From positions 4,717,699 to 4,781,698 of the forward strand of contig OZ252030.1 in assembly GCA_965247305.1 (NCBI GenBank): a stretch of DNA of 64,000 nucleotides, in the 5' to 3' direction. This document shows positions 12,001 to 21,000 of the stretch, in pieces. Within the stretch, counting starts at the first letter, position 1, and each line of letters opens with the position of its first letter. This stretch comes from Bryobacterales bacterium (GTDB lineage: Bacteria; Acidobacteriota; Terriglobia; Bryobacterales; UBA6623). The position numbers are program-made.

Positions 12001-15000
12001 CCAACCCCATCCCCAGCAGCTCCTCGGCTAGCTCGCCGGCGGCCTTCTCGCCCGCCGCATCGCGGTCGTACGCCAGAAAGATCTTCTTGACGCCGTACTT
12101 GCTCAACGCCTCGCGATGCTCGTCGGTAAAACCGTTCACGCCATAGCTCGCCGTCACGTGGCGATAGTCGGCGCACCAAAACGTCAGCGCATCGATCAAC
12201 GACTCGCACAAGATAATCTCGTTCGAGACTTCCAGTGCCTCTTCGTTCCAGACGCCCCGGTGCGGACCCGGCAAGTAGAGATGCAACGGCGTTCCGGCGC
12301 GCAAGCCCGACGAGATCTTGCGCCCGTAGATCTCCCGCACCGCTCCCTGTCGATCGAACACCGGCATCACGATCGAGCCGTTGAAGTGCTCGTGTCCCGA
12401 GCCGCGCAGCACGCCCAAACGTTGCAAGCGTCCGCGAATCTCCGCGCCCGCCTTGCGGTTCTTCTCCGGCAGCCGATAACCCAACGTGCGATTCGCAAAA
12501 CCCAGCCGAAACCGCTTGATCATCTCCGGATGGTCAAGCCCGCGCGCGGCCAGGTACTTGAGCGCTTCGGGCGAGGCGAGCAACGTCTCGTGGTAGTAGT
12601 CCAGCGTCTGCAGCAAGACCTCGTTGTCCTCGGCCGTCGCCGCGATCGGCGTCTCGAGCTTCACATCTTCAGCCGTCGCCTTACGCACCACGCGCTCAAG
12701 CGGAGCGGCTAAAGAAGGATGGTCCGCTCTCAACAACTCCACCGCATGCCGGAAGCTCACGCCCCTGGTCCGGATCACCCAATCGATCACCGACCCGCCC
12801 ACGCCGCAAGCCCCCAGACAATGCCACAAATTCTTCTTCGGACTCACCACCAACGACGGCTCGCGATCATCGTGAAACGGACACAGCCCCAGTAGATCCG
12901 CCCCGTGACGTTTCAGCACGATCCCTTGCGCCGCGACCAGCCGCTCCAGCGACACCTCCCGCTTCAACCGCTCGATCTCGTGCTCGGGGATGCGCGCCAT
13001 GGGAAAGGCTCCTTCTAGAAAAACCTGTCAAGAGGGAAGACACTCTTTTCGTATCTTTTTTGACTCTCTGATACCGTCCATGAGAGTATACGTTATGCGT
13101 ATATGTCAAGGACGGCCTCCACTCCCCGCTCCCGATCCCACTCTTACAATCGGGCTGAGATGCCACGCAAGAAGAAGCACGATGAGAGCTTCGGCCCGCG
13201 GCTCACCCGCATCCGTAAGGCGCGCGGCCTCACGCAGGTCAAGCTCGCCGAAGCCGCTGGGACGACGCAGCGCGCCATCTCCTACTACGAGAACGACGCC
13301 GGCGTGCCGCCGTCGTCCGCCGTGATCTCGTTGGCGAAGGCGCTCGAAGTTTCCACCGACAACGTGCTCGGGGGGACCGTTACTCGATCGTTGGACTCGT
13401 CCCCAGACAATTCGATTTCGGAAGAGCTGGTGGCCGTCGGGATTGATGCTGGTTTCGGTGCTATTGGTGGAGCAGTTGGTGCGAAGCTGGGTAGTGCTTC
13501 ATCTTCGACCGGTATAGCTCAAGCTGAAAAACAGATCGTAGCGTCTACAGCGGGGGCGAGGCGGGGAAACTTCGGTGCCAGTCGCTCAGTCAGCGGACAT
13601 CAGGCAAAGATCCAGCGTCTCCAAAGCCGCGCCGAACTAGTCGACACGACTGCTGCGTCCGTGACGACGAATCAAGCTCTTCCTGTGGTGCGTGAAGTCA
13701 TAGAACAAGAGATCGAAGATGACTCAAGATAGCAAGGACGGAAGCCTACCTCGATCGGGAATCGACAGCGAGGTTAGTCAATTGCGGGCGAAGATGATCC
13801 GTCGCGTACAAGCCAGTGCCATCTTACTATTGCTTTGCGCTGTCATGATTGTCCTGTTGCTCAATCCAGACGAGCCAGGAACCGTGTGGCGTTTGACCTT
13901 TGGTTTCGTTTCCGTCGTCTTGATCTGGTCGATTGGGTGGATTCTCGGAGCACTGTACCAACTTTGGGAATTGCGCAATGCGTAGTGTCCAGGCCAGTCA
14001 GTGATAACCATGCAACCCGTACCGAGTGCACGGTCGCACTCAGCCGCCGCCGGACCAGCGTTTGGCTTCGTGCCGTAGGATCATGCTTTCGAGTAGGGAG
14101 CGGATGACGTTTTTGTCGTCGGGGTCGAAGTGGGAGACGGCTTCGAACTGGAGTTTGAGGTCGTCGTCGGGGCCGCGCTCGTCCTTGCCGAAAAGCAACA
14201 GATCTGCACTGATGCTGAGAGCCAGAGCCAATTGACGGATCACGTCCAGCGTGGGCTGTGAAGCGCCGCTTTCGTAGCGCCGGAGCTGTACCACGTGGAC
14301 GCCGATGCGGCCGGCTAGGGACTGCTGCGTGAGACTCCGCTCCTTGCGGAGCGCCGCCAAGCGCTGCGGGAAGTCGGTCGTCGCCTTCGTTTTCCTCACT
14401 CCCCCAAGGTAGAGGCAGGGAACCGATATGTTGACTGCTTGAGATACCATGTGTTAGTACAAATATAACACATGTGTCTCTTGACAGCTTTCCCATCTGA
14501 GCGCCGCTTCGCGGACATCGTTCCATCCGAGGTTCACTGATGGCGCGCATCCCCGAGCACGAGATCGAGCGGTTGAAGCGGGAGGTGCCGCTGGAGAGGC
14601 TGGTCGCGGCGCAGGGGATCGTGCTGAAGCGTCACGGGGCGGATCTACTGGGGCTGTGTCCGTTTCACGATGATCGCGAGCCGTCGTTGGTGGTGAGTCC
14701 GAAGAAGAATTTGTGGCATTGTCTGGGGGCTTGCGGCGTGGGCGGGTCGGTGATCGATTGGGTGATCCGGACCAGGGGCGTGAGCTTCCGGCATGCGGTG
14801 GAGTTGTTGAGAGCGGACCATCCTTCTTTAGCCGCTCCGCTTGAGCGCGTGGTGCGTAAGGCGACGGCTGAAGATGTGAAGCTCGAGACGCCGATCGCGG
14901 CGACGGCCGAGGACAACGAGGTCTTGCTACAGACGCTGGACTACTACCACGAGACGTTGCTCGAATCGCCCGAAGCGCTCAAGTACCTGGCCGCGCGCGG

Positions 15001-18000: not shown

Positions 18001-21000
18001 ACTCGACCGGCATGCGCCGCCTGGAGCTGGCCAGGCTCAAGCTCTACGACCTTGATGCTGAACGTGGCACGGTGAACATCCGCCAAGGCAAGGGCGGCAA
18101 GGATCGCGTCATCCCCATCGGCGATCGCGCCGCGGCTTGGGTCCACAAATACGCCGAAGAAGCCCGGCCGCAACTCGTCGTCGAGCCGGACGACGCCACC
18201 GTATTCCTCTCCAATGCCGGCGAAGCGTTCTCGCTCGATCATCTCTCCGACCTAGTGCGAGTCCACGTTGACGCGGCCGAGATCGGCAAGCGCGGCGCGT
18301 GCCACCTGTTCCGCCACACCATGGCGACGCTGATGCTCGAAGGCGGCGCCGACATCCGCTACATCCAACAGATGCTCGGCCACGCGGACTTGAAGACGAC
18401 GCAGATCTACACGCAAGTCTCGATCCGCCAATTGCAACAGATCCACGCCGCCACGCACCCGGCCAAGCTGCCCAAGCCTTCTTCCCTTTAGCCGCTCACG
18501 CTACACCCGCGCCGTACAATCGAGGGGACGGTGACGGTGTCCCGCACACGAACGCTTGTCCAAGTTGCGGCGCTAGTCGCGATTTGCAGCCTGCCGCTCG
18601 CCGCGCACACGCGCGTAGCCCAAAACTCGCCTCTAGGCCTCAAGACTTTCAGCACACCTTCGCACCAGGGCTTCGCCGAAGCTAACCCGCTGATTGCACC
18701 TGGCTTAGCCGAATCGTTGTGCCACCAAGGCGTCCGATCCCGTTGTTCCGCCAAAGAGCGCGATGACGAGTCGGGCCTGGATTACTTTCTGGCGCGCTAT
18801 TACTCGACCAAGTTGGGACGATTTACGAGCGTGGATCCCGAGAACGCCGGTGCATCTTTGGCTGATCCACAACTCTGGAACGGATACTCTTATGTCGGCA
18901 ACAACCCATTAGTGCGAGTCGATCCTGACGGTCGAATCGTTTTCACGCTGGCGGCAGTTGGAGCGGCTCTATACACAGCGTTTGAGGTGGCTTCCACCGC
19001 CCTGGATGTATTCACGCTTGCCGAGACAATCCAAGACCCAAATTCGACCGGAAGCGATATCGCTCTGGCAGCCGGTGGTCTTGCTGCAGGAGTAGTCGTC
19101 CCGGGTCCCGGTGGGACGGTCGCCAAGGGTGCGAAGGCGGTCGGGGGTATAGGAAGGCGGGCTGTCCGCTCGGCTGGCAAGCGAGTCGCGCTTGATGCAG
19201 ACAAGCTAATCAATCTGGAAAAGCTCGGAAAGCAGGCGCTGGAAGGGCTTGAGGGTCGACTGATCGCTACCAAGCAGGCGTTTAAGGAACTACTAAAGGG
19301 TTCGACCCGTAAGGAATCGAACAAATTGCTCAAGAGGTTTGGGATTGAAAAGGATTTCAGCAACCCAAGGCCCAAGGTCAGATCTGAAACCTTCGAAGCA
19401 GCGCGAAAAGCCGGATTGACCGTCAAGGACGCTAAGGTCGTTTCGGAAGCGAGGTCTATTGGGGCGAAAGTTTCGTCCAGGGACAAGGCTGTTGAGAGGT
19501 TTGTGGAGGAAGTCGAGCAAGGCCTCGATCCGTAGGTAGGGTGGACTTATGCAGAAGATAGCGTTGGCGGTCGACGTGATCCTAAGCGCACTTGTCGGCA
19601 AGTATCGGGAAGGCATCGACGATCACATCAATCAGGCCAAGAGCGGTGAAGCTGAAATAGTAATCTTTCACGACGCTCTCTGTTACGCCCTATCCGCGGT
19701 AAGAGAGAAGGACGAACTAGATATGGAGAAATTCTCTGAGCTGCTCCGACACTCGACCGTAGTGGAATCACCAGAGTTCACCAGAGAACATTCCTCTGAT
19801 TGGCGGCCCTCTGTTGATGAGGTAGAACACTGGCGCGAGATCGCTCTGAAGGACTAACCGAGCGTCCTTTTAAGCCCTGGAAGGTGTGAAAAAATTGATC
19901 TTGAAAAATTTCCTGGACTGATTCAAAATAGGTTAGCTGTGCCCCAATGCTCGAATCCGGGATTTTTTCACACCTTCCTGTCCCTTGGTAGGGTCGGGAA
20001 CTGGCGCGGTGGCCCATCAGGACGTTGGCTTGGCTGTATCCGGGGAGATCGGGGACAGGGGTAAAACTAAGCAAACCTTTATATAACATCGGTTTACGGC
20101 GATTTGAATGTAGCAGTAAACTCACAACGTTATGCCCCGCGATGAGTGTCTCGTTATCGCCGGAATGCCCCACGACATCAGACAACGAATACGAAGAAAT
20201 GGGGACACGAAGAAATGGGGACAACGCGAAAGCGCCGGGATAAACCGGCGGGGAGTAGGGGATGAAAGAGCCCTACAGTGAAGGAGTAGCGAACCACGCT
20301 GACCTCGAGTCATGCGGCGGCGGGGGCGACCTCGCGGCCGAAGCGTTGACAGAGGTACTGGCGGGCGGGCTATTGAGCCGTGAATAAACTCATTTCGGAG
20401 GCCGACGTAGTGCGTTGTACGGGAAGGCAACAGCGGCTGTCGCGCCATCGCGAGCGGCGGTCGGCTGCGGCGCGGTCGTTGGAAACTTAGCACGCCAGGA
20501 AACTCCCCGCGCGAGAACCGGGAGACCTCGACAACGCTCTGTCGGCAACGGCAGGCCGGCGGGTGAAGGCCAAGGCCGCACGACCCGCGTGTACGTTGTG
20601 GAGGAGTCGGACCGAGCCGTAGTACCTACGAAGGAACCGAACAAGGGCGGGGAACCGTCGGCGGAGGTTTTGGAGGAAAGGACTCGGGCCAAGGAGAACG
20701 ACGATGAGCCGCGCACGGTCCGCACACAGTGGCGGACAAGCCGTGACCCCGGGGCCATCGGCGTACGGCGTGGAGGCTTCTCAGAAGCCGCTACGGACGT
20801 CATTATCCGAGGCAGGAGATGAAATGAGGAGGCCCGTCAGGGGAGTGAGTTAAGCTCCCCGCAAAGGGCGTCGCCGCGGGGCGGCGATCCTGGATTTTTC
20901 TAAGGAGAAAAGGAGAGACGAGCCATGAAGAAACAGAGCAAGACCCTGGTAGTGAGATCGAAACAAGAGATGATCGAGCGCGGTATGAATGCCGTAGCCG

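What a model noticed while it worked through the whole genome (the two positions that open the first line are those of the whole stretch)
14040..19857. Primase-XerC element recombines at a dif-like site inside the Rhs core and shuffles toxin tips
Ten copies of a ~4.7-kb element (HTH repressor, 986-aa DnaG-primase/P-loop ATPase, XerC-like recombinase) each end in a promoter and a 75-codon leader fused at the same base to the 3' part of an rhs gene. The junction is an 11-6-11 dif-like palindrome (ATCCCGTTGTT-CCGCCA-AAGAACGCGAT) overlapping the Rhs core codons T|AKERD, so the element is a site-specific device that captures, re-expresses and exchanges Rhs toxin-immunity tips with long rhs genes, leaving integron-like tip arrays.
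Evidence so far: 10 of 10 XerC copies are followed by leader|core fusions with 8 different tips and preceded by another tip-immunity pair. Identity between element-borne tips and native rhs genes starts exactly at the junction: g00870 vs g04345 99.8% over 1897 bp, g04173 vs g03515 99.7% over 389 bp; att remnants without the element lie between tandem tips at 1003995 and 4920226. In 64 relative loci with enough flank, 37 have an Rhs core downstream of xerC and 23 show the same [SP]R[CYS]T|[GAQ]KERD junction with the conserved left arm; primase upstream in 60 of 69. Searches found no such element; PMC3482391 and a 2026 preprint (passages read) only note XerC/D genes near poly-immunity loci.
(Added by a program. 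Inside this text positions count along the whole contig: contig position 4,717,699 is position 1 of the stretch shown here. "Call 12" and the like, gene names such as g00115 and contig names such as C1 are that model's own, and its searches are not shown. The text may have been shortened before it was handed on; [...] marks where a part breaks off. The agent that wrote the report below was given it as the finding of a first reader that could run no searches.)

Follow-up and report, generated by a model that had tools for sequence, protein, structure and literature searches.

The report
Mobile element that swaps toxin warheads
A small mobile element, present ten times in this genome and found from Acidobacteria to E. 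coli, is joined at one fixed base inside genes for antibacterial Rhs and CdiA toxins; its own recombinase likely inserts it as a circle that gives the host gene a new toxin tip and likely keeps the old tip and its immunity gene switched on behind it.

Summary
Core observation confirmed and extended; several details corrected. Ten copies carry a repressor, a primase/MCM-like helicase, a PRK01287 XerC and a 73-codon leader fused at one base to an Rhs core, with 8 different tips. The mobile unit is most likely the UPSTREAM tip-immunity pair plus the element; the downstream tip is the displaced resident one. New evidence: (1) an E. coli empty/filled pair, a 7,789-bp insert at one Rhs codon with the crossover confined to 15 bp; (2) 5 of 159 related contigs close as 7.5-8.0-kb circles with exactly the predicted join; (3) the junction register follows the XerC tree, and other lineages fuse at Rhs DPIG or CdiA VENN; (4) eight near-identical native rhs bodies change tip right at the site. 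Against: the quoted palindrome occurs 0 times exactly, native left arms match 2-4 of 11, element-borne tips differ from their native twins at +8 to +14, one native swap looks homologous, and no circle was seen in this sample's contigs. No recombination assay exists. Ten literature searches found no description; Jackson 2009 stated that no integrase was known with Rhs.

The parts
13361..13732 (+). 3' part of upstream toxin tip G, fused in this assembly to the neighbouring copy's HTH (ORF 13103-13732)
   Evidence: matches the tip at contig 1003995; reciprocal to contig 4919789; contigs of two runs continue through the unfused forms
13719..13985 (+). likely immunity gene of tip G; part of this copy's own cargo
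   Evidence: small membrane-type ORF overlapping the tip stop; same gene precedes copy E1
13995..14039 (.). left end of the shared element sequence, about 30-48 bp past the repressor stop; imperfect inverted repeat
   Evidence: pairwise identity among copies ends 28-48 bp from the stop
14040..14450 (-). RstR-family repressor, divergent from the primase
   Evidence: NCBIfam NF041951, 124.6 bits against cut-off 80
14540..17500 (+). 986-aa DnaG-type primase (CHC2 zinc finger, Toprim) fused to a predicted MCM-like AAA+ helicase
   Evidence: Pfam; model pLDDT 82; Foldseek top hits all MCM, best E 2.6e-9, TM 0.41
17505..18491 (+). tyrosine recombinase, PRK01287 XerC subfamily; R171, K196/199, H267, R270, H293, Y302 present
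   Evidence: NF002331 441.6 bits against cut-off 371; below the cut-offs of chromosomal XerC/XerD and integron integrase
18515..18520 (+). conserved TACAAT, likely -10 box
   Evidence: 10 of 10 copies; in relatives an in-frame start follows 5-10 nt later in 42 of 44
18531..18749 (+). 73-codon leader, in frame with the Rhs core
   Evidence: leader family found in 92 of 101 relatives with enough flank
18737..18764 (+). attachment site (attR): left arm 18737-18747, 6-bp overlap 18748-18753, right arm 18754-18764 coding KERD; crossover inferred between 18747 and 18748
18750..19535 (+). Rhs core end with DPDG plus toxin tip H, read as the displaced resident tip
   Evidence: TIGR03696; first 389 bp shared with native gene at contig 3987176; tip has no Pfam family
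19549..19857 (+). likely immunity gene of tip H
   Evidence: position only; no family
1050..6579 (-). copy E6 (second HTH type), junction at 1835
8014..13360 (-). copy E7, junction at 8790
22177..24672 (+). truncated native rhs body, tip A and partner gene; attL-type junction at 23410; cargo of copy E9
25051..30552 (+). copy E9, junction at 29761, HNH nuclease tip
31155..37552 (+). copy E10, junction at 35823, tip and TPR partner gene
39914..45433 (+). full-length native rhs, one of five bodies identical over the last 1,140 bp that carry different tips; core at 44669

Best explanation
This is an integrative element whose own XerC likely recombines a 28-bp site inside the conserved coding end of polymorphic-toxin genes, so that insertion would hand the host gene the element's toxin tip and push the old tip behind the element's leader. 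Shown: the gene set, the fixed junction, filled and empty alleles in E. coli, and contigs that close as leader|tip-immunity-repressor-primase-xerC circles. Inferred steps: (1) the circle is the transfer form, closed at attP = leader arm + 6-bp overlap + KERD-coding arm of its own tip X; (2) XerC crosses attP with a resident rhs core (attB), cutting between -3 and -2, giving body|X-immX-element-leader|Y-immY; (3) the leader promoter keeps Y-immY expressed, preserving immunity to kin still firing Y and probably making the element addictive; (4) repeats of step 2 at attL or attR build arrays, and deletion derivatives that keep only the left arm act as passive cassettes; (5) the primase-helicase replicates the circle or resolves a one-strand exchange, and junction migration or gene conversion among copies explains right arms that are element-type for 10-45 bp.
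For: E. coli Ec-U10 and A34 have intact rhs|tipQ; KW21 has the same locus plus 7,789 bp. Its right join equals the empty allele from base 0 (first mismatch +1354; positions -1 to -12 all differ); its left join has 1 mismatch in 600 upstream and diverges from +15. 8 of 8 xerC copies in four E. coli chromosomes are followed by the same join with 5 tips. 5 of 159 related loci have 122-127-bp terminal repeats and read as the predicted circle, four with a single tip; in the three MAGs checked the tip occurs only on the circle. In 48 distinct KERD junctions the left arm mirrors the KERD codons, wobble positions included; the two best of 140 geometries centre on the junction (6.9 and 6.5 of 10 against 2.6 +/- 0.9, n=28). 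The -2..+3 overlap is identical at both ends in 12 of 12 loci, four with rare variants, while -3 differs in four. Register follows the XerC tree: 6 changes against 24.2 shuffled, 0 of 200. Eight native genes in two body families have 0 mismatches next to the site upstream and a first mismatch at median +11, like unrelated cores (+8), although homology runs on to +171. Same design at CdiA VENN with a 12-6-12 site. Not found in 40 relatives, six of the same genus.
Against: No assay. Native left arms pair only 2-4 of 11, so attB recognition is unexplained. Six of ten copies share a right arm found in 0 of 21 native cores, and both element/native twin pairs differ inside the arm. One native swap (4128265) has its crossover near -150, as homologous recombination would give. 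Copy E5 has a different overlap from its upstream core. Palindromes are weak for junction classes B, C and E (best 4.2-4.7 of 10). Circular contigs could be collapsed tandem repeats; the Shigella 8.8-kb 'plasmid' equals one repeat unit of the E. coli arrays. Several left-arm columns were fixed by my search pattern. Clustering on the tree partly reflects kinship. Only 1 of 8 element tips has a toxin family hit. In a Leptospira plasmid the module is followed by parB, not an annotated tip.
Confidence: 0.8

Rival explanations
1. Homologous recombination in the Rhs core does all tip exchange (Jackson 2009 model); the element inserted once per lineage and now only provides repeats that drive duplication, deletion and circles.
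For: Element copies are mosaics at 94-100% identity; element-type right arms extend to +14 or +44; one swap at -150; the Shigella circle is a tandem unit; orphan recombination is shown in Salmonella (PMC3967940, abstract seen).
Against: KW21/Ec-U10 crossover lies in 15 shared bp followed by 16 mismatches in 60; six independent native swaps all fall at the site; conserved DNA-level inverted arm and overlap matching; single-tip circles.
Confidence: 0.1
2. The element is a selfish addiction module: it targets rhs cores because they are conserved, multi-copy sites, and the leader-driven toxin-immunity pair serves its own maintenance; arming the host gene is a by-product. The chemistry is as in the best explanation, the selective purpose differs, so the two can both hold.
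For: Relatives add SymE, RelE/DinJ or VapC-type modules; many host bodies here are IS-truncated; the leader is kept in frame with the toxin tip in 42 of 44.
Against: Insertions restore a full-length in-frame body|tip fusion (contig 4586671 and 2605768; E. coli JNE120442); circles carry their own tip placed for fusion.
Confidence: 0.3
3. Host XerCD, not the element's enzyme, recombines the dif-like site (IMEX-like), with the element's XerC acting elsewhere.
For: 28-bp 11-6-11 geometry and an RstR-family repressor as in CTX-type elements (geometry of dif recalled, and PMC10210955 passages).
Against: Arm sequences differ between lineages and follow the element's XerC tree and the target codons, not a host dif consensus; the element's catalytic residues are intact.
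Confidence: 0.05
4. The ten copies and the circles are assembly artefacts.
For: The 13360/13361 fusion is not bridged by any listed contig.
Against: Summed contig depth over the element is about 6-9 times that of single tips; copies differ by up to 6%; complete E. coli genomes show the same arrays.
Confidence: 0.02

Closest known systems
Rhs C-terminal displacement via an episomal circle (Jackson 2009, PMC2935791, passages read)
   Same: A circle carrying a tip inserts into the rhs core and shunts the old tip downstream.
   Different: [quoted passage not shown]
CDI orphan modules (Poole 2011 PMC3150448; Ruhe 2016 PMC4927057; passages read)
   Same: Displaced toxin-immunity pairs in tandem; Ruhe notes integrase genes nearby and proposes integration into cdiA.
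   Different: No element, enzyme or site was named in the passages read.
Integrons
   Same: Tyrosine recombinase, promoter at the insertion site, arrays with newest entries next to a site.
   Different: Enzyme is PRK01287, not IntI; site lies in a coding sequence; the recombinase travels with the cargo and has a primase-helicase.
rAID of Bacteroidales (10.1101/2025.05.03.651265, passages read)
   Same: Tyrosine recombinase with arrays of antagonism genes.
   Different: rAID holds orphan immunity genes only; here toxin-immunity pairs are fused in frame to a delivery protein and a replicase is present.
IMEX elements (CTX, RS1, TLC; recalled)
   Same: RstR-family repressor; 28-bp dif-like geometry; tandem arrays.
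   Different: IMEXs borrow host XerCD at dif; this element has its own XerC and targets toxin genes.
Elements that supply a new 3' end to the target gene (phage 21 and e14 at icd; recalled) and SCCmec with its MCM-like helicase (recalled)
   Same: Integration in a coding sequence that restores the gene; recombinase plus replication module.
   Different: Here the new 3' end is a different toxin domain and the displaced end is re-started by a leader; no phage match.

Membership tests
PRK01287 XerC subfamily (protein) | NF002331 score above cut-off | tested here: met
   441.6 against 371 bits
Site-specific integrative element | tyrosine recombinase with intact catalytic residues | tested here: met
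Site-specific integrative element | filled and empty alleles with a short shared core | tested here: met
   E. coli relative (about 46% XerC identity): 7,789-bp insert, 15-bp shared core; no empty allele available for this genome itself
Site-specific integrative element | circular form closed at attP | tested here: inconclusive
   5 of 159 loci close as the predicted circle; tandem collapse not excluded; none seen in this sample's contigs
Site-specific integrative element | recombination depends on the element's enzyme | not testable with these tools
   needs a bench assay
Integron | IntI integrase | tested here: not met
   TIGR02249 115.6 against 265 bits; NF011946 75 against 435
Integron | attC hairpin after each cassette | tested here: inconclusive
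   2 remnants of 33 cores carry only the 10-bp left arm; no fold test or attC model was run
IMEX | no own recombinase; uses host XerCD at dif | tested here: not met
   own XerC in every copy; site in rhs
ICE/IME | relaxase and/or conjugation genes | tested here: not met
   three genes only between the ends; the two small plasmid records are typed non-mobilizable
rAID | array of orphan immunity genes without toxins, in Bacteroidales | tested here: not met
   tip-immunity pairs; hosts Acidobacteria and Proteobacteria
Prophage or phage satellite | virion or packaging-hijack genes, or phage relatives | tested here: inconclusive
   no such genes; no primase match at E<=1e-60 in 50,697 phage records; only two distant XerC hits in viral contigs; helper dependence not testable
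Rhs toxin-immunity module | Rhs core with DPxG followed by a variable tip and a small gene | tested here: met
   TIGR03696; motif 156-201 nt after the junction in 32 of 33 cores
Rhs toxin-immunity module | toxicity and neutralisation | not testable with these tools
   1 of 8 element tips has an HNH hit

The most novel reading that the evidence does not exclude
A cross-phylum class of self-replicating elements dedicated to re-arming polymorphic toxins: each lineage's XerC has evolved to read the DNA of a conserved toxin motif (Rhs KERD, Rhs DPIG, CdiA VENN and others), swaps the warhead in one step, keeps the old immunity expressed, and mobilises passive tip cassettes in trans. It would be the missing enzyme and the 'episomal pool of tips' predicted in 2009.
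Probability: 0.55. Interest if true: 0.93.

Novelty: new variant of a known kind. Interest (0 to 1): 0.86.

Why it matters
How Rhs and CdiA genes gain new toxin tips while keeping the old ones downstream has been open since 2009. The papers read invoke homologous or illegitimate recombination and state that no integrase is known (PMC2935791, PMC5361080) or only suspect one (PMC4927057). This names an enzyme, a base-exact site and a circular carrier, present in 53 of 5,426 complete E. coli genomes, so the question becomes a simple genetic test. A recombinase that fuses domains in frame inside a coding sequence, with lineages retargeted to different motifs, is also of interest as a tool and explains many unannotated 'rhs fragment' pseudogenes.

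Tried and rejected
Sequencing runs: four holders, one sample, contigs only, no RNA holder listed. Laid on 21900-38500 and 12900-20300, they showed no circle or excision joint, and the tip A contig runs unbroken over its junction; contigs drop rare variants, so this is not absence. Sigma-70 scan: no site at the leader. Codon-position entropy in leaders was nearly flat (1.13, 1.17, 1.30), so protein-level selection rests on frame keeping only. A signal-peptide role for the leader was considered: this copy and the Enterobacter one look hydrophobic, most Acidobacterial leaders do not. Tip H: no Pfam hit, Atlas scores under 0.9, single-sequence model pTM 0.32; not used. Primase C-terminus: no PHROG or PDB sequence hit. 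The Shigella and Lonsdalea plasmid records were first read as circles, then down-weighted as possible tandem-unit circles. Empty/filled test in close kin impossible: 0 of 40 relatives had the XerC. Literature: ten searches; one search was swamped by unrelated words and fetched a wrong paper. Term look-ups in PMC11606950, PMC10210955, PMC11278526, PMC8138268, PMC5131962, PMC9933511 and 10.64898/2026.09.30.755834 showed no description. No supplements were read; Additional File 1 of PMC3482391 may list such loci. Five look-ups of earlier scan findings returned nothing.
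Full report
What is there. The window lies in an 8.55-Mb single-contig genome; the nearest XerC relatives are mostly from Acidobacteriota. 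At 14040-18491 are an RstR-family repressor, a 986-aa DnaG-type primase whose C-terminal half is predicted to fold like MCM helicases, and a PRK01287 XerC with intact catalytic residues. A TACAAT box, a GTG 10 nt later and 73 codons run in frame into an Rhs core at 18750, a tip and a small gene. The genome has 10 such XerC copies and 33 Rhs cores: 10 leader-fused, 2 remnants, 21 native. All ten fuse at the same base, with 8 tips. None of 40 relatives, six of the same genus, had the XerC at E<=1e-90. Summed contig depth fits several chromosomal copies and shows no gross amplification.

Corrections. The two quoted twin pairs differ at +8, +11, +14 and at +8. Six copies (four tips) share one right arm found in none of the 21 native cores; four copies have tip-specific arms. 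Eight of ten copies have a core upstream within 3.8 kb. This copy's upstream cargo is cut by a reciprocal rearrangement with contig position 4919789; contigs of two runs pass through the unrearranged forms and no listed contig bridges the fusion, so it is a minority variant or a misassembly.

Relatives. Among 79 genome loci and 80 metagenome loci (XerC 56-86% identical; the best 80 of 315 and of 560 confirmed), the primase precedes xerC in 131 of 137 with flank, and a leader profile hits 92 of 101 with at least 1.8 kb downstream. Of 51 classed junctions, 44 have TACAAT within 420 nt, and 42 of those have a start codon 5-10 nt later in an open frame to the junction. On a tree of 56 classed XerC rows (24 unclassed rows left out, five labels set by hand) the register needs 6 changes against 24.2 shuffled; kinship contributes to this. 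In the KERD class the left arm is the inverse of the KERD-coding DNA: it varies at -13, -10 and -7 where the right arm has wobble positions +14, +11 and +8. In 12 of 12 loci with both ends (13 examined, taken from 16 upstream cores; three with non-KERD right joins were omitted and one had no right join) the -2..+3 overlap is the same at both ends, four times a rare variant, while -3 can differ. This places the cut between -3 and -2 and supports the 11-6-11 reading, although the innermost pair is usually unmatched in relatives.

The mobile unit. Five of 159 loci have 122-127-bp terminal repeats; read as circles of 7.5-8.0 kb they give xerC, leader|core-tip, repressor (found in three), primase, back to xerC, with no long rhs body. 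One of the five, L012, also one of the four rare-overlap loci, comes from a genome flagged unpublished (G042); the claims stand on the other loci without it. In three bins the circle's tip occurs nowhere else. So the element's own tip is the one upstream of the repressor in the linear form. E. coli confirms this. A related system (about 46% XerC identity) is in 53 of 5,426 complete genomes, in the four fetched as arrays at the ansP-nhoA rhs locus. Strains Ec-U10 and A34, picked from a search with the terminal tip, carry that tip on a rhs body with no element. KW21 equals Ec-U10 plus 7,789 bp inserted at the DPIG codon, with only 15 bp shared between the two joins. An 848-bp tip-immunity cassette ending in a remnant is present in KW21 and absent in S10, where the join is one base short. 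In Enterobacter the leader fuses at CdiA VENN with a 12-6-12 site pairing 10 of 12, and in Pseudomonas at a GAK motif. In a Leptospira plasmid the module sits after a large M23 gene and its partner but is followed by parB; I did not resolve that case.

Native swaps here. Five bodies identical over the last 1,140 bp and three more nearly identical over 4 kb carry eight different tips; first mismatches fall at +5 to +32 (median +11) against +8 for 190 unrelated pairs, which differ at 14 of 60 bases upstream. One further gene is a mosaic with a crossover near -150, so homologous recombination also operates.

Mechanism. Shown: anatomy, fixed joins, filled and empty alleles, circular contigs. Inferred: XerC catalysis, direction of events, replication by the primase-helicase, expression from the leader, toxicity of most tips (one HNH hit of eight). 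Most likely the circle inserts at the resident core, arms the host gene with its tip and restarts the displaced pair. How a new tip becomes fixed upstream of the repressor, and how the poorly matching native left arm is recognised, remain unexplained; element-type right arms suggest junction migration or conversion among copies.

Relation to known systems. It works like a site-specific integrative element that supplies a new 3' end to its target, and leaves integron-like arrays. It fails the tests for integron, IMEX, ICE/IME and rAID membership. Jackson 2009 predicted tip-carrying circles but by homologous recombination, noting no integrase was known with Rhs (passages); Ruhe 2016 suspected integration (passages); Kirchberger 2017 found no evidence for an integrase in Vibrio arrays (passages); Zhang 2012 notes XerC/D near polyimmunity loci (passage). 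Ten searches of the open library found no description; subscription journals and supplements were not seen. Verdict: a real, widespread and apparently undescribed element family; new variant of a known kind, interest 0.86.

Noticed in passing
window 13103-13732 and contig 4919789-4919796: HTH/toxin-tip fusion ORF, reciprocal to a site 189 kb away with almost no shared sequence; contigs of runs X3 and X4 follow the unfused forms, X1 and X2 break exactly there. A polymorphic inversion or a misassembly.
   Followed up: partly
window 46965-49267 and about 67 places in the genome: 2.55-kb two-gene IS (IS21-like by gene layout, label from recall); splits two primases and borders the duplicated rhs bodies, which may move as IS-flanked blocks.
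   Followed up: partly
window 20265-20485: Group II intron 5' part (Rfam RF02005, 154 bits) followed by an IS110-family transposase at 20925-21803.
   Followed up: no
window 19140 region, contig 3987176: Tip H shares 389 bp with a native gene and then diverges: a second exchange point inside the tip. Class D relatives fuse at such a distal motif.
   Followed up: partly
contig 1014619, 802863, 2605768, 3987176: Native tips look by eye like a lysozyme, a methyltransferase-like domain and two HNH nucleases; not scanned.
   Followed up: no
L082:16735-17598: The leader of the CdiA-targeting element looks like a lipoprotein signal peptide, which could export the displaced tip.
   Followed up: no
L098:3425-18321: Leptospira plasmid: same repressor-primase-recombinase after a large M23 gene, in a repeated unit with parB; a possible further toxin class as target.
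   Followed up: no
L081 (11,289-bp circular record) and L080 (8,758-bp circular record): Plasmid records with no replicon typed that consist only of element units and tips; excised circles or collapsed repeats.
   Followed up: partly
L084-L087, L099, L100: symE genes beside rhs immunity genes at the E. coli ansP-nhoA locus, also in element-free strains, may be relics of past insertions.
   Followed up: no
L007, L008, L026, L027, L048 downstream of xerC: Accessory genes between xerC and the leader vary, including antitoxin/PIN-toxin-like pairs (by eye).
   Followed up: no
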